A stretch of 64,000 bases of DNA from Escherichia phage AV110: the sequence record OR352940.1. The stretch is one strand, 5' to 3'. A model generated the notes under the pieces. That model had not been told where the DNA came from and ran no database searches. It saw only the letters and a program-made list of their open reading frames with translations. Of this stretch, positions 38,445-40,971 are shown one piece after another (within the stretch, counting starts at the first letter, position 1; every line of letters starts with the position of its first letter). A program made the position numbers and the translations under genes.

Positions 38445-38909
38445 TTATTTAATTTGTTTAGCAGACCAGATACGGTCTTTAATAAGTTTTTGGATATCTT
38501 CAACATACTCAAGGCTATGAGCGTGAGGATTATCTTTGAAGCTATGTGCTCGTGCCAGTTTCTGGCCTTCTGTTTTGATTACTAAAAGCTCTTTAAGAAT
38601 TGCTTCATACTTAGAAATAATTCCTTTGGCGATATTTTTTTCTTGAGTTGCTTTAGGGTCTGTTTTTGGCGCAGGTGCTTTACCTGTAGCTTTCTGGAAC
38701 AATTCACCTGATGCAGCTAGGCTTTTAAAAACTCGGCTAACAGTATTAGCATTAGTAAAACCTTCGGCTTTAAAATCTCTAATAAAACGGAAACGTTCTT
38801 CATCAGAGGCGTCTTTGTAAGAATATTTACCTGCTTGAATTGCTGCAATCGCAGCGGCTTTTACATCTGAACTAGATTGTTCAGTCAAAAATTCAGCGTA
38901 TGATTTCAT
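38445..38909 (-). CDS. Internal-protein-like protein with capsid-targeting signal (MKSYAEFLTE)
   Basis: 154-aa ORF; N-terminus resembles the capsid-targeting sequence; Ala/Lys-rich body. Confidence 0.6.
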   Translation of the reverse strand: MKSYAEFLTEQSSSDVKAAAIAAIQAGKYSYKDASDEERFRFIRDFKAEGFTNANTVSRVFKSLAASGELFQKATGKAPAPKTDPKATQEKNIAKGIISKYEAILKELLVIKTEGQKLARAHSFKDNPHAHSLEYVEDIQKLIKDRIWSAKQIK

Positions 38910-38957
38910 GTTGCTTTTCCTAAGTTAATTAACTTATCTATTTATTATTATGCCAAA

Positions 38958-38981
38958 AAGCCCCGACCTTTCGGAAGGGCT
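38958..38981 (-). terminator. Hairpin AGCCC-(13 nt)-GGGCT + TTTTTGG closing the tRNA/small-RNA transcription unit
   Basis: GC stem then U-run on the minus strand, between the RNA locus and the internal-protein gene. Confidence 0.55.
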
Positions 38982-39030
38982 AAGCCTTGCGGCAACCTTG
39001 TCGGGGTTCCACCTGCTAAGGCAAGTGTTT

Positions 39031-39125
39031 GTACGAAACGCCGGGATTTGAACCCGGTTATTAAGCAGTTGACGCTACTCAATATTTTTAAAAGGCCATA
39101 TCTCGACCATATCCGAACGTTCCGT
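39031..39125 (-). ncRNA. Putative small stable RNA with tRNA-like T-arm and acceptor stem (possible counterpart of T4 RNA C/D)
   Basis: Minus-strand CCGGG-TTCAAAT-CCCGG T-arm followed by a 7-nt strand complementary to CGGAACG about 85 nt upstream; no convincing D or anticodon arm; ~290 nt with no ORF. Confidence 0.3.
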
Positions 39126-39292
39126 CAAAAACGCTACTCGGCTTACGGCAAAGATATTTCCTCGAATCGATAATTCGGTGCGCCGTTTCTGCTGTGATGT
39201 AAGGGGATATTAATAAATCGTAAAGATTTATTAAGACCAGTCCTTACTCAGGGAACATCAGTCCGACGACTTGCCGGTAGCGACCCGGCTTC

Positions 39293-39661
39293 TTATTTTG
39301 GCATATCATCAATTTGCTCTCGACGCCGACGCCATAGATTAATCGCTTCATAAACACATTCAGCATTTGGTATATGACGACAATAGTATAGTGATTCGCG
39401 TTTCTGGAACCGATGTTGTAATGGAATTTCGTTTAAAAGGTCTTTACGGTCAAAGTATTCAAAACTAGTTAACCCGGAACGGTTTTTAAGAAACTTCCAA
39501 TGGCCAAATTCATTTTGGAAATAAACGTAATCGGCGTGTTGATATAACGAATTAATCAACCGGTCGGAAATAACTGTATCCTGTTCATTAAAATAAAACG
39601 TTAAATCATGAACTACCAAATAAATATTGCCTTTCATATTTTCCTCACAGTGGTATATCAA
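39293..39661 (-). CDS. Hypothetical protein within the tRNA region
   Basis: 122-aa ORF. Confidence 0.5.
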   Translation of the reverse strand: MIYHCEENMKGNIYLVVHDLTFYFNEQDTVISDRLINSLYQHADYVYFQNEFGHWKFLKNRSGLTSFEYFDRKDLLNEIPLQHRFQKRESLYYCRHIPNAECVYEAINLWRRRREQIDDMPK

Positions 39662-40178
39662 ATTTAGTAGATTTTGAATCTAATTTTCTAATTATAGAAT
39701 TTATATCATGGAAGAAAAACCATTCGCCGTTTACATGGTCAGATTCATAAATTGAATGTAAGTATTTTTCGAGTTCAACCGCATCTTGAGAATATCTAAA
39801 TGATAGTATTTTAAAACTTTTAAATGGAGAAAATGTATTTGCCGATAAAGCTCTTATATCAGGTTCTATACTTCTTCCTATTTTATAATAATTTGGATTT
39901 TTAGTGTCAGCCATTATATAAACAAATGCCTGACGGTGGCTTTTTTCTATATCAAACTCATCTTTAAATTTTAAGAGATTTAAAGCAGCAGTTCTACAAA
40001 ACACTCGCCAAATAGCTTGTTGTTTTGCTCTTGACTTTAAAAGAAAATTTTCTTTATCCACAATTTTAAGATAGGCCACCTTTTCGATAAGTTCTTTAGT
40101 CATTTCAAAATTATAATGACCAATTAAGCCTTTTTTAATAGCCAAATTAATTTGGTCCCAATCTACATCGCTTCTCAT
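39645..40178 (-). CDS. T5orf172-like (GIY-YIG superfamily) domain protein in the tRNA cluster
   Basis: ORF track 39645..40271 trimmed to MRSDVDWD at 40178 (longer form overlaps a tRNA-like gene); C-terminal VYIMADTKNPNYYKIGRS..LEKYLH..GEWFFF resembles the T5orf172 pattern. Confidence 0.5.
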   Translation of the reverse strand: MRSDVDWDQINLAIKKGLIGHYNFEMTKELIEKVAYLKIVDKENFLLKSRAKQQAIWRVFCRTAALNLLKFKDEFDIEKSHRQAFVYIMADTKNPNYYKIGRSIEPDIRALSANTFSPFKSFKILSFRYSQDAVELEKYLHSIYESDHVNGEWFFFHDINSIIRKLDSKSTKFDIPL

Positions 40179-40196
40179 AGTGTTATTCTCATAAAT

Positions 40197-40273
40197 TGGC
40201 CAGTGTGGAAGGATTCTAACCTTCAACCTACGGTTTAGAGGACCGCTGCTCTGTACATTTGAGCTACACACTG
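40197..40273 (-). tRNA. tRNA-like gene, anticodon TCT (Arg) by position, with atypical D-loop, T-loop and position 33
   Basis: Hand-folded cloverleaf: acceptor CAGTGTG/CACACTG, encoded CCA, anticodon stem GCGGT/ACCGT, loop CCTCTAA; D-loop lacks GG and T-loop is TTAGAAT. Confidence 0.5.
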
Positions 40274-40301
40274 TACTAACTTTTATACTATATAAATTGT
40301 T

Positions 40302-40376
40302 TGGTGACCCTGGCTGGTTTCGATCCAGCTACCTATCAGTTATGAGCTGACAGCTCTCCCATTGAGCTACAGGGCC
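40302..40376 (-). tRNA. tRNA with anticodon CAT (elongator Met or lysidine-modified Ile)
   Basis: Hand-folded cloverleaf: acceptor GGCCCTG/CAGGGTC, D-arm GCTC-AATGGGA-GAGC, anticodon loop CTCATAA, T-arm GCTGG-ATCGAAA-CCAGC, encoded ACCA. Confidence 0.75.
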
Positions 40377-40455
40377 TAAATAACTTTCTATTATGAAAGG
40401 CACTTTAGAGCACCTTTGGTAATAGAGGGTATGAATTAATAATAACACATAATTC

Positions 40456-40971
40456 TTAAAGCAAATCAATCATTTTAACAGTCGGCAAAACAATTTCTTC
40501 TTCAATATAAGCGAATTCAACACGTTCAACTACACGCAAGAAATCATAGTCGTAGTATTCAGAAGCATAGCCAAGAATATCAATAAGTCCTTGAGATATC
40601 TCATCGCCTTTCACAAAGAACAGGTCGAATACGCGGCCTTCGTCTTCTTCAGATTTATCACCAAGGTCTACTTCAATACCAAAGACCTTTTTAATGAATT
40701 CCGGCTGGAGCTGGTCTGAGAACAGTCCTTCAACCAAGTATTCATAGATTAAAAGCGAGCAATCACTGAATGGTGTATTACCACAGTAACGTTCAGCTTT
40801 AGTGCTTGAATGACGACTCTTAAATTTCTTCAAGAGATATTTAAACTGTTGGAGCTCATGCTCTTCCACACCAAATAATGTTTTGGTTTTATAGTTGTCC
40901 CCGTCGTTTTCCCAAGTAGTGACATCAATTACGTAACCCTTAGGAATTGTACTGCCTAAACAAATATTCAT
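40456..40971 (-). CDS. Hypothetical acidic protein
   Basis: 171-aa ORF. Confidence 0.5.
   Translation of the reverse strand: MNICLGSTIPKGYVIDVTTWENDGDNYKTKTLFGVEEHELQQFKYLLKKFKSRHSSTKAERYCGNTPFSDCSLLIYEYLVEGLFSDQLQPEFIKKVFGIEVDLGDKSEEDEGRVFDLFFVKGDEISQGLIDILGYASEYYDYDFLRVVERVEFAYIEEEIVLPTVKMIDLL

What the first reader, a model, noticed from the sequence alone, without database searches (positions are those of the whole stretch)
38958..40376. Reduced tRNA locus with an atypical tRNA-like gene, a T5orf172-type protein and a 290-nt ORF-free RNA region
Only two tRNA-like genes are present where T4 has eight tRNAs. The CAT tRNA (40302-40376) folds canonically. The TCT-anticodon gene (40197-40273) has an acceptor stem and encoded CCA but no GG in the D-loop, A at T-loop position 56 and C at position 33, so it may be a divergent tRNA, a pseudo-tRNA, or a tRNA-like element with another role. 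Between them and the terminator at 38958 lie two protein genes, one with a T5orf172/GIY-YIG-like C-terminal domain (T4 carries the homing endonuclease segB in its tRNA cluster), and a 290-nt stretch with no ORF that contains a tRNA-like T-arm plus acceptor stem (39031-39125) and a direct repeat GAGTAGCGT.
Basis: partly seen in the sequence, partly recalled or inferred. Interest (0 to 1): 0.5.

Follow-up and report, generated by a model that had tools for sequence, protein, structure and literature searches.

The report
Mobile nuclease gene with odd tRNA-Arg
This is the tRNA and small-RNA locus of a T4-like coliphage; most of it is already known, but its arginine tRNA breaks a near-universal tRNA rule (C instead of U at position 33) and travels as a unit with a selfish nuclease gene, a pairing that recurs in several unrelated phage groups.

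Summary
The window is a Mosigvirus-like T4-type phage.

- **ORF-free stretch:** it is not new. It holds the homologues of T4 rnaD (39177-39296) and rnaC (39032-39170; 136/139 identical to T4). These are known stable RNAs whose function is still unknown.
- **TCT element:** it scores as a standard tRNA (Rfam 62.1 bits, gathering 29). The missing GG and A56 are a compensated tertiary pair (U19:A56; C19:G56 in relatives). It is therefore not a pseudo-tRNA.
- **C33:** this deviation is real and rare: 1 of 101 matching anticodon arms in IMG/VR.
- **Linkage:** C33 occurs only where a 177-aa T5orf172 (GIY-YIG-fold) gene lies 19-22 nt downstream, in three T-even genera and in metagenomes.
- **Wider pattern:** more distant homologues sit beside tRNA-Arg(UCU) with G32, and beside tRNA-Lys with C33 in BF23. 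In T5-like phages, the same sites without the gene carry canonical C32-U33 tRNAs.
- **Recent movement:** the cassette is 99-100% identical between two phages whose flanks differ by 12%.

Best reading (about 0.5): a free-standing homing endonuclease that targets tRNA genes, analogous to T4 SegB, with the 32/33 changes protecting its own copy. The main rival is that these changes make the tRNA resistant to anticodon nucleases.

The parts
40302..40376 (-). tRNA with anticodon CAU, with encoded CCA. Probably the counterpart of T4 tRNA-Ile (lysidine-modified CAU reading AUA) rather than tRNA-Met.
   Evidence: ARAGORN; Rfam tRNA 59.4 bits. The first 18 nt (GGCCCUGUAGCUCAAUGG) are identical to T4 tRNA-Ile, and it has the C4-G69 and C5-G68 pairs. 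The role of those pairs in lysidine synthesis is recalled from memory. 99-100% identical in all Mosigviruses compared.
40274..40301 (-). 28-nt spacer that belongs to the left end of the mobile cassette. It is absent from phages that lack the cassette.
   Evidence: Alignment with moha, ATK47 and ESh27. 100% identical to ECO111 5-P.
40197..40273 (-). tRNA-Arg(UCU) with encoded CCA. Loop CCUCUAA with C33 (window 40240) and G27; tertiary pair U19 (40255):A56 (40217); A20 and C35 present.
   Evidence: ARAGORN; Rfam 62.1 bits. Structure counts: 100% of 198 cells paired, 12 of 22 pairs changed on both sides, 0/500 shuffles reach this. C33 in 1 of 101 matching arms in IMG/VR.
39645..40178 (-). 177-aa protein: helical N-terminal domain (about residues 1-75) plus C-terminal T5orf172/MUG113 (GIY-YIG fold) nuclease domain. 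Putative free-standing homing endonuclease. Its stop codon overlaps the ribosome-binding site of the next gene.
39293..39637 (-). 114-aa conserved protein of unknown function (RB69ORF150c homologue, phrog_3355). In phages without the cassette it starts 18 nt after tRNA-Arg. Its stop codon (39293-39295) overlaps the first bases of the rnaD homologue.
39177..39296 (-). Homologue of T4 rnaD (species 2 stable RNA). The 5' and 3' cores are conserved; the central hairpin varies.
   Evidence: About 88% identical to T4 rnaD. Alignment and consensus fold of 16 homologues.
39032..39170 (-). Homologue of T4 rnaC (species 1 stable RNA), a tRNA-like RNA. It has an acceptor-like terminal stem, a long hairpin in place of the D-arm, a 10-bp anticodon-like stem and a canonical T-arm (39039-39055). 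It holds both copies of GAGTAGCGT.
   Evidence: 136/139 identical to T4 rnaC. Annotated as rnaC in ATK47. Consensus structure with covariation. The repeat is unique to this RNA within the window.
38955..39031 (-). Conserved 3' trailer and intrinsic terminator (stem CCCCGAC...GUCGGGG at 38961-39006, U-run at 38955-38959).
   Evidence: Terminator scan; fold (z-score -1.1, so not distinctive). The trailer is about 93% identical to T4.

Best explanation
The region is the tRNA and stable-RNA transcription unit of a Mosigvirus-type T-even phage. It reads right to left on the minus strand and ends at one terminator. The order is: tRNA(CAU), then a mobile cassette, then the ORF150c-like gene, rnaD, rnaC and the terminator. 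The cassette is a 28-nt spacer, tRNA-Arg(UCU) with C33, and a T5orf172 nuclease gene.

Shown:
- The two tRNAs are real and structurally constrained.
- The ORF-free stretch is rnaD plus rnaC.
- The nuclease gene and the C33 tRNA-Arg form one unit that has replaced the resident U33 tRNA-Arg.
- The unit is patchily distributed in three genera and has recently moved between Mosigvirus backgrounds.
- The protein is under purifying selection and has a GIY-YIG-type fold.
- In four gene-present versus gene-absent comparisons, tRNAs next to a gene of this family carry C33 or G32. In three of them the alleles without the gene are canonical C32-U33. In the fourth (Jiaodavirus and relatives) the alleles without the gene also carry G32.

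Inferred mechanism:
- The protein is a free-standing homing endonuclease that works like T4 SegB. In a mixed infection it cuts the tRNA-Arg(UCU) gene of a phage that lacks it.
- Repair from the donor copies in both the nuclease gene and its linked tRNA.
- The changes at positions 32 and 33 (plus G27) lie in the only segment shared by all the target tRNA-Arg genes, the anticodon loop CTTCTAA. They make the carrier's own copy uncuttable.

The tRNA still works as an AGA decoder. AGA makes up 17.6% of Arg codons in this window. A BF23 tRNA-Lys with C33 becomes an effective amber suppressor once its anticodon is changed to CUA.
For: Identity of the locus:
- Best matches are Mosigviruses.
- rnaC is 136/139 identical to T4 and rnaD about 88%. 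ATK47 annotates rnaC at this position.

The tRNA is genuine:
- Rfam 62.1 bits.
- 100% pairing, with 12 of 22 pairs changed on both sides, including tertiary 19:56.

Cassette boundaries and recent transfer:
- Boundaries come from the alignment.
- The cassette is 99.4-100% identical to ECO111 5-P. The adjacent ORF150c 5' half is only 88% identical to ECO111, against 95-97% to moha and ATK47.

Linkage, group A:
- All 14 phage records with a protein at least 77% identical are, apart from ESh27 (which has lost the tRNA), the same records as the top hits for this tRNA-Arg.
- C33 was read directly in the window, ECO111, VR7, VR26, UFV-AREG1, teqskov and eight metagenomic contigs. The gene always lies 19-22 nt downstream.
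- U33 was read in moha, ATK47, PhAPEC2, VR20, SEA1 and T4, none of which has the gene.
- In IMG/VR, 100 arms have U33 and 1 has C33; that one is VR26.

Linkage, other groups:
- Homologues at 56-63% identity in Jiaodavirus, Winklervirus, Muldoonvirus and metagenomes lie 19-20 nt after a tRNA-Arg(UCU) with G32.
- None of 45 T4-type C32 arms has the gene.
- In T5-like phages, Gostya9-type genomes carry the gene with a G32 tRNA-Arg. SP15 has the same flanks, no gene and a canonical CUUCUAA tRNA-Arg. About 220 other records match only the upstream flank, so their tRNA-Arg was not read.
- BF23 carries a paralogue next to a C33 tRNA-Lys, while T5 and SP15 have no gene and U33.

Nuclease character:
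- Pfam, fold, conserved catalytic-type residues, dN/dS 0.12-0.19.

Precedents:
- SegB is a homing endonuclease in the T4 tRNA cluster. It recognises a conserved tRNA motif and drives inheritance of the surrounding tRNA genes (PMC2330249).
- T5orf172 proteins are regarded as GIY-YIG-type homing endonucleases, and one has shown nuclease activity (PMC10448857).
Against: - No cleavage or homing experiment exists for this protein family. The target site is inferred only from comparison.
- Immunity could be gained more cheaply by changes in the stems, so recurrent use of the near-invariant positions 32 and 33 is not an obvious expectation of DNA-level immunity.
- Alleles with G32 but no gene exist (Kpn6N, Shark_ER15, L161, phC11). 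G32 is therefore not strictly tied to the gene. They fit only if they are sites left behind after loss of the gene.
- Alleles with and without the gene differ at many other positions.
- The comparisons are few and phylogenetically structured, so the association has no formal significance.
- Strong purifying selection over dS of about 1 is more than a purely selfish element needs.
- There is no detectable sequence similarity to SegB.
Confidence: 0.5

Rival explanations
1. The changes at positions 32 and 33 are adaptations of the RNA, not of the DNA. They make phage tRNA-Arg(UCU) and tRNA-Lys(UUU) insensitive to host anticodon nucleases. This would work either directly or by preventing t6A/ct6A37 from being installed. 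The nuclease gene is merely the vehicle that spreads this useful cargo.
For: - All variant tRNAs decode ANN codons (AGA, AAA). Their E. coli counterparts carry modified U34 and t6A37 (from memory) and belong to the PrrC/RloC substrate class.
- RloC cuts tRNA-Arg to a lesser extent (PMC3025547).
- U33C abolishes t6A formation by E. coli TsaBCDE, and C32 is required by yeast KEOPS (PMC8887486).
- PrrC is stated to need ct6A37 (PMC12409363).
- Phage tRNAs are known to escape tRNA-targeting defences through anticodon-loop or stem changes (PMC10264068, PMC11464382, PMC12409363).
- C33 has been kept across dS of about 1.
- G32 alleles persist without the gene.
Against: - It gives no causal reason why the variants sit next to this one gene family in four separate systems, on either side of the tRNA.
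- No nuclease known to act mainly on tRNA-Arg(UCU) in E. coli phage defence was found in the papers searched.
- No C33 tRNA-Arg without the gene was found.
- The modification state of these tRNAs is unknown.
Confidence: 0.22
2. The T5orf172 protein is not a homing enzyme. It is a domesticated nuclease or DNA-binding protein with a function for the phage, for example attacking competitor or host DNA or regulating the tRNA operon. C33 is a tolerated hitch-hiker fixed in the cassette's ancestor.
For: - dN/dS of 0.12-0.19 over long divergence.
- T5orf172 domains have been domesticated in ICP1 (Odn) and in PLE (CapR) (PMC10448857; PMC8263062 listed).
- The N-terminal domain has no recognisable DNA-binding fold.
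Against: - Recurrent 32/33 variants in non-homologous tRNAs next to different family members are hard to explain by one founder event.
- The patchy distribution and the sharp identity break at the cassette edge are typical of mobile endonuclease genes.
Confidence: 0.13
3. One reading: the TCT element is a pseudo-tRNA or a tRNA-like element with a role outside translation.
For: - C33 departs from the U-turn rule.
- ESh27 and the L143/L144 contigs have lost or truncated the tRNA yet keep the gene.
Against: - Rfam 62.1 bits.
- Every stem pair and the 19:56 tertiary pair are maintained by compensatory change.
- A20 and C35 are present.
- It is the only phage tRNA-Arg in these genomes, and AGA is used about four times more than in E. 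coli (the host figure is from memory).
- BF23 tRNA-Lys, which has C33, becomes an effective amber suppressor when its anticodon is changed to CUA (record note).
Confidence: 0.05
4. The protein acts on RNA. It cleaves canonical host or competitor tRNA-Arg(UCU) in the anticodon loop, and the linked C33 or G32 tRNA is the resistant replacement.
For: It would explain the causal link between the gene and the loop variants, and also the strong purifying selection.
Against: GIY-YIG enzymes are DNA nucleases as far as is known (memory). All structural neighbours found act on DNA. There is no direct evidence.
Confidence: 0.05

Closest known systems
T4 rnaC and rnaD (species 1 and species 2 stable RNAs)
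   Same: - Same sequences: rnaC 136/139 identical, rnaD about 88%.
- Same order (rnaD then rnaC), same strand and same place at the 3' end of the tRNA cluster before the terminator.
- rnaC lies between tRNA genes in Winklervirus and Gelderlandvirus phages.
   Different: Here rnaD follows a protein gene (the ORF150c homologue) rather than tRNA-Arg directly. The function is unknown in T4 as well (PMC3014915, PMC9697503).
T4 SegB, the GIY-YIG homing endonuclease of the tRNA cluster
   Same: - A free-standing nuclease gene inside the tRNA operon, next to tRNA-Arg.
- Patchy among relatives.
- SegB targets a conserved tRNA-gene motif and drags the neighbouring tRNA genes with it (PMC2330249).
   Different: - No sequence similarity (BLASTP E = 0.55).
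- The nuclease domain is C-terminal and of the T5orf172/MUG113 type, not N-terminal GIY-YIG plus NUMOD3.
- The gene lies downstream, not upstream, of tRNA-Arg.
- The presumed target is the anticodon loop, not the T-loop motif.
- Activity is untested.
T5orf172-type putative homing endonucleases of ICP1 and T5-like phages
   Same: Same Pfam domain and GIY-YIG-type core. They sit at boundaries of genetic exchange (PMC10448857), as seen here. Homologues at 38-44% identity lie in T5-like tRNA regions.
   Different: - Most of those carry CapR, DUF723 or DUF4397 zinc-finger DNA-binding domains. This family has a small helical N-terminal domain with no such hit.
- That survey states that T4 has no T5orf172 genes, and none of its four mentions of tRNA concerns tRNA genes next to these nuclease genes.
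Phage tRNAs with anticodon-arm changes that escape host tRNA nucleases (T5 tRNA-Lys against PARIS AriB; mycobacteriophage tRNAs)
   Same: A phage-encoded isoacceptor differs from the host tRNA within the anticodon arm (PMC12409363, PMC10264068).
   Different: The T5 escape changes lie at the AriB cut site between positions 40 and 41 in the stem, not at 32 or 33. No nuclease is known for this tRNA-Arg. Linkage to a nuclease gene is not part of that model.
Initiator tRNA-Met of multicellular eukaryotes (C33)
   Same: It is the only natural class of tRNA with C33 that the papers read here describe (PMC8887486).
   Different: That is an initiator tRNA. This is a bacterial-virus elongator tRNA-Arg.

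Membership tests
tRNA (Rfam RF00005) | Cloverleaf scoring above the family's gathering score (29 bits) | tested here: met
   62.1 bits (TCT) and 59.4 bits (CAT), full-length matches. ARAGORN agrees.
tRNA (Rfam RF00005) | Stems and the 19:56 tertiary pair are maintained in evolution | tested here: met
   198 of 198 cells paired. 12 of 22 pairs changed on both sides. 19:56 is U:A in seven sequences and C:G in two. 0/500 shuffles reach this.
tRNA (Rfam RF00005) | U at position 33 (U-turn) | tested here: not met
   The loop is CCUCUAA. Fold and identity elements are intact, so it is still filed as a tRNA, but as a variant.
T4 rnaC (species 1 RNA) | Sequence homology over the full length and the same genomic position | tested here: met
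   136/139 identical to NC_000866 rnaC. It lies before the terminator of the tRNA cluster.
T4 rnaC (species 1 RNA) | Accumulates as a stable small RNA in infected cells | not testable with these tools
   Shown for T4 by northern blot (PMC9697503), not for this phage.
T4 rnaD (species 2 RNA) | Sequence homology and a position immediately upstream of rnaC | tested here: met
   About 88% identical over 119-120 nt, 6 nt before rnaC.
T5orf172 / MUG113 (Pfam GIY-YIG clan) | Profile score above Pfam's curated cut-off | tested here: met
   PF13455 35.7 bits (cut-off 22.3); PF10544 30.6 bits (cut-off 20); residues 85-155.
T5orf172 / MUG113 (Pfam GIY-YIG clan) | GIY-YIG fold with conserved Tyr, Tyr, Arg and Glu residues | tested here: met
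Free-standing homing endonuclease gene | Sporadic presence among close relatives at one conserved site, with a sharp break in identity at its edges | tested here: met
   Only 2 of 803 records that match the locus cover at least 80% of it, both Mosigvirus-like. The gene is also present in a minority of Gaprivervirus and Tequatrovirus phages. Identity break.
Free-standing homing endonuclease gene | The neighbouring target gene differs between genomes with and without the endonuclease gene (self-immunity) | tested here: inconclusive
   C33 with G27, or G32, accompanies the gene in four comparisons. Whether these positions control cleavage is unknown. G32 alleles without the gene exist.
Free-standing homing endonuclease gene | Site-specific double-strand cleavage of the allele that lacks the gene, and gene-dependent over-inheritance in mixed infection | not testable with these tools
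   Needs enzyme assays and phage crosses, as were done for SegB (PMC2330249).
Seg family (SegA-G of T4) | Sequence similarity to Seg proteins: N-terminal GIY-YIG (PF01541) with NUMOD3 | tested here: not met
   BLASTP against SegB gives E = 0.55. There is no PF01541 hit. It works like a Seg protein but is not a member.

The most novel reading that the evidence does not exclude
A small family of T5orf172 nucleases (only 12 clusters among 5.8 billion proteins) specialises in tRNA genes that read AGA or AAA. It recognises them through the anticodon-loop DNA. Self-immunity forces changes at the near-invariant positions 32 and 33. Those same changes strip t6A37 and so create tRNAs that escape modification-dependent anticodon nucleases. 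Under this reading a selfish element and an anti-defence cargo evolve together. In a stronger version, the protein itself cleaves canonical tRNA-Arg and the linked variant is its antidote.
Probability: 0.15. Interest if true: 0.75.

Novelty: new variant of a known kind. Interest (0 to 1): 0.5.

Why it matters
- Most of the locus is ordinary: a genus-typical reduced tRNA set plus the long-known rnaC and rnaD.
- The new element is a repeatable rule. tRNA genes flanked by this nuclease family carry substitutions at positions 32 or 33, positions that are otherwise almost never changed.
- If the rule reflects target-site immunity, selfish nucleases can push functional tRNAs away from universal sequence rules. 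The case would also be a clean, testable second example, after SegB, of homing aimed at tRNA genes.
- If it reflects escape from nucleases, it points to a cheap route to nuclease-proof tRNAs through loss of t6A37.
- Either way, a C33 elongator tRNA that works in E. coli is useful for tRNA biology and engineering.
- The covariation-supported tRNA-like fold of rnaC also gives a firmer starting point for a 50-year-old RNA of unknown function.

Tried and rejected
- Rfam at permissive E-values found nothing credible in 38800-40500 apart from the two tRNAs, so rnaC and rnaD have no Rfam family.
- PADLOC gave weak hits that share only the domain (PDC-S57, PD-Lambda-1). These were not taken as evidence for a defence role.
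- I first supposed that G32 is specific to genomes carrying the gene. Kpn6N, Shark_ER15 and L161 have G32 without it, so this was rejected for Jiaodavirus-type phages.
- Most G-type matches to the IMG/VR pattern for the T4-type arm were coding sequence rather than tRNA, and were discarded.
- Homology to SegB was rejected.
- The 3' trailer after rnaC folds no better than shuffled sequence (z = -1.1).
- The eLife paper on phage tRNA anticodon-loop mutations does not mention position 32, position 33 or tRNA-Arg.
- Literature searches found no description of a phage C33 tRNA or of T5orf172 genes tied to tRNAs. The library is incomplete, so prior description cannot be excluded.
Full report
**What the window is.** The 1.5-kb region matches 803 T-even-type phage records. 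The closest are Mosigvirus or Mosigvirus-like genomes: ECO111 5-P, ESh27, moha and ATK47. All genes in the region lie on the minus strand. Flanking genes correspond to T4 trna.2, trna.3 and trna.4 on one side and to e.8-side genes on the other, so this is the counterpart of the T4 tRNA cluster.

**The two tRNAs.**
- ARAGORN finds only two tRNAs in the 64 kb: Arg(tct) at 40197-40273 and 'Met'(cat) at 40302-40376.
- Rfam's tRNA model scores them 62.1 and 59.4 bits against a gathering score of 29.
- Two or three tRNAs is the normal number for Mosigvirus.
- The CAT tRNA shares its first 18 nt and its acceptor pairs C4-G69 and C5-G68 with T4 tRNA-Ile, which also has a CAU anticodon. It is probably the AUA-reading isoleucine tRNA. 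The role of those pairs in lysidine formation is from memory.
- In 59 long ORFs of the window, AGA is 17.6% of Arg codons and AUA is 15.2% of Ile codons. Both are rare codons in E. coli (from memory), so the retained pair of tRNAs makes sense as codon supplements.

**What is and is not unusual in the TCT tRNA.**
- The D-loop lacks GG and the T-loop has A56. However, G18-U19 with A56 keeps the 19:56 tertiary pair as U:A.
- In two metagenomic relatives the same pair is C19:G56.
- Across nine related tRNA-Arg genes, all 22 pairs (cloverleaf plus 19:56) are formed in all 198 cells. Twelve pairs show changes on both sides, and no shuffle out of 500 reaches these values.
- A20 and C35 are present; these are the arginine identity elements as I recall them.
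- The T-loop and D-loop peculiarity is shared by ordinary Mosigvirus, Gaprivervirus and Gelderlandvirus tRNA-Arg genes. It is a lineage trait.
- What remains is C33 (window 40240) in the loop CCUCUAA.
- This is rare. A search of IMG/VR for the same anticodon arm with either base at position 33 gave 100 with U and 1 with C.
- Among 301 distinct tRNAs in all loci fetched, 290 have U33 and 9 have C33. Six of those nine are this tRNA-Arg type.

**The protein next to it.**
- The ORF at 39645-40178 (177 aa) passes the Pfam thresholds for MUG113 and T5orf172 over residues 85-155. It belongs to phrog_5032, a family of unknown function.
- A 12-sequence alignment gave an AlphaFold2 model with pLDDT 93.
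- The GIY-YIG-type residues are invariant in the family.
- It has no sequence similarity to T4 SegB.
- The family is tiny: 12 clusters in 5.8 billion proteins, all from large phage contigs.
- dN/dS between copies is 0.12-0.19 at dS of about 1, so the protein is kept functional.

**The gene and the C33 tRNA form one mobile unit.**
- Alignment with relatives shows what differs from moha and ATK47. The segment from just after tRNA(CAU) to the ribosome-binding site of the ORF150c homologue is replaced. In its place are a 28-nt spacer, a different tRNA-Arg and the nuclease gene.
- The new tRNA differs from the resident one in six of seven acceptor pairs, all compensated, and at 31:39, G27 and C33.
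- The unit is 99.4-100% identical to that of ECO111 5-P. The adjoining half of ORF150c is only 88% identical to ECO111, but 95-97% identical to moha and ATK47. The same cassette therefore sits in different backgrounds.
- The 14 phage records with a protein at least 77% identical are ESh27, ECO111, VR7, VR26, ESCO10, UFV-AREG1, TB004, teqskov, BCH953P2, LF82-9, REP2, REP3, sutha and 236Ecol005PP. Apart from ESh27, they are the same records as the top matches of this tRNA-Arg.
- I read C33 directly in the window, ECO111, VR7, VR26, UFV-AREG1, teqskov and eight metagenomic contigs, including two new lineages at 74-77% protein identity. The gene always lies 19-22 nt downstream.
- Phages without the gene (moha, ATK47, PhAPEC2, VR20, SEA1, T4) have U33.
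- ESh27 keeps the gene but has lost the tRNA between two CCAA repeats.

**The pattern extends beyond this cassette.**
- Homologues at 56-63% identity occur in KpV477, X20, Muldoon/PS2 and several metagenomic contigs. Each lies 19-20 nt after a T4-type tRNA-Arg(UCU) whose loop is GUUCUAA (G32). In one contig pair the tRNA is 5'-truncated.
- In IMG/VR none of 45 T4-type C32 arms has the gene. Of three true G32 tRNAs, two have it.
- G32 occurs nowhere else among the 301 tRNAs.
- G32 without the gene does exist, in Kpn6N and Shark_ER15.
- In T5-like phages, about 15 records (Gostya9 type) carry a homologue at 43% identity that overlaps the 5' end of a G32 tRNA-Arg(UCU). SP15, with the same flanks, has no such gene and a different tRNA-Arg with the canonical loop CUUCUAA. 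About 220 further records match only the upstream flank, so their tRNA-Arg was not read. phC11 has the G32 tRNA alone.
- In BF23 a paralogue at 38% identity directly precedes a tRNA-Lys(UUU) with loop CCUUUAA (C33). T5 and SP15 lack that ORF and have CUUUUAA.
- The BF23 record notes that this tRNA-Lys becomes an effective amber suppressor when its anticodon is changed. A C33 tRNA can therefore work in translation.

**Interpretation.**
- The closest known system is SegB of T4, a GIY-YIG homing endonuclease inside the tRNA cluster. SegB recognises a conserved tRNA motif (the T-loop) and drives inheritance of itself and the neighbouring tRNA genes. It is transcribed as part of the tRNA precursor that ends after species 1 RNA (PMC2330249).
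- T5orf172 proteins are treated as GIY-YIG-type homing endonucleases that mark recombination boundaries. One has shown glutamate-dependent nuclease activity (PMC10448857).
- I therefore read the 177-aa protein as a free-standing homing endonuclease aimed at tRNA-Arg(UCU) genes.
- The target tRNA-Arg genes in Mosigvirus, Gaprivervirus, T4 and T5-like phages share little apart from the loop CTTCTAA. Variants at positions 32 and 33 in carriers of the gene fit target-site immunity.
- This step is inferred. No enzyme data exist, and immunity could in principle be gained through stem changes.
- The main rival is an advantage at the RNA level. U33C blocks t6A37 formation by the E. coli enzymes and C32 is required by yeast KEOPS (PMC8887486). 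PrrC is stated to need ct6A37 (PMC12409363). RloC cuts tRNA-Arg to a lesser extent (PMC3025547). Loop variants could therefore yield nuclease-proof tRNAs that the nuclease gene merely carries around.
- The two explanations are not exclusive.

**The ORF-free stretch.**
- Window 39177-39296 and 39032-39170 align with T4 rnaD and rnaC (species 2 and species 1 RNAs) at about 88% and 136/139 identity. They have the same order and the same position before the terminator. ATK47 annotates rnaC there.
- Homologues occur in 801 phage records.
- Their function is unknown (PMC3014915). In T4 they are late, northern-confirmed RNAs (PMC9697503). A convergent SNP in rnaD arose in a T4-like phage adapting to a semi-permissive host (PMC12685909).
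- I built a consensus structure for rnaC from ten distinct homologues, including Winklervirus, Karamvirus and Gelderlandvirus phages. In two of those phages rnaC lies between tRNA genes.
- The consensus has four elements: an acceptor-like terminal stem, a long hairpin closed by AGG:CCU, a 10-bp stem-loop and a canonical T-arm. Ten pairs show compensatory change.
- The terminal stem pairs in every sequence and covaries at one pair. This rests on few substitution events.
- rnaD has conserved 5' and 3' cores and a variable central hairpin.
- The GAGTAGCGT repeat is real and confined to rnaC. Its meaning is unknown.

**Verdict.** Most of the locus is already known or genus-typical. The C33 tRNA-Arg linked to a T5orf172 nuclease gene, and the wider 32/33 rule, appear to be undescribed in the literature I could search and can be tested directly.

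Noticed in passing
window 39044-39054 (-); tRNA T-loops at 40211-40221 and 40315-40325: The core SegB recognition motif GGTTCRANTCC (PMC2330249) occurs once in the whole 64-kb window, in the T-arm of rnaC. Both tRNAs of this phage lack it (GGTTAGAATCC and GGATCGAAACC). The odd T-loops, including A56, might themselves be a legacy of pressure from SegB-like endonucleases.
   Followed up: partly
window 40302-40376 (-): The 'tRNA-Met' called by ARAGORN and by most database records looks like the counterpart of T4 tRNA-Ile (CAU anticodon modified to lysidine, reading AUA). It also has an unusual T-loop, AUCGAAA, with A at position 54.
   Followed up: partly
window 38977-39031 (-): The 55 nt between the annotated 3' end of rnaC and the terminator hairpin are about 93% identical to T4, as conserved as the RNAs themselves. 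Their predicted fold is not better than shuffled sequence (z = -1.1).
   Followed up: partly
L121 (Klebsiella phage Shark_ER15) 754-1410: A different 218-aa endonuclease-like ORF sits between tRNA-Leu and the G32 tRNA-Arg. It has a cysteine/histidine motif at the N-terminus and a PD-(D/E)xK-like C-terminus. tRNA clusters seem to be a general landing site for mobile nuclease genes.
   Followed up: no
L142 2560-2949 (metagenomic T4-like contig): A second T5orf172/MUG113 gene lies about 800 nt downstream of the first, just after a tRNA-Lys(UUU). The loop of that tRNA is canonical (CUUUUAA).
   Followed up: no
L123 (Serratia phage LC53) 169-241; L098; L015 585-657: Other phage tRNAs with C33 turned up: tRNA-Ile(GAU) with loop CCGAUAA in LC53, a tRNA-Met(CAU) with loop CCCAUAC in L098, and tRNA-Leu(UAG) in My1. 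I did not check whether nuclease genes flank them.
   Followed up: no
L213 (BF23 tRNA region) 137-239 and 1383-1554: BF23 also carries 'stable RNAs with unknown functions' (RNAIV, RNA 2H) embedded in its tRNA region. This parallels rnaC and rnaD of T-even phages.
   Followed up: no
L006 (VR7), L008 (UFV-AREG1), L009 (teqskov): 3' end of the nuclease ORF: In these phages the nuclease ORF runs into the first 20 or so nucleotides of rnaD (C-terminal ...KKPGRYR is encoded by AAGAARCCGGGUCGCUACCGG). Maturation of rnaD would therefore cut the mRNA at its stop codon, as was proposed for segB and tRNA-Arg in T4.
   Followed up: partly
window 38445-38909 (-): The 154-aa gene downstream of the terminator is 99.8% identical to moha and ATK47. 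It is absent from ECO111 5-P and ESh27, which share the cassette. This is another mosaic boundary close to the locus.
   Followed up: no
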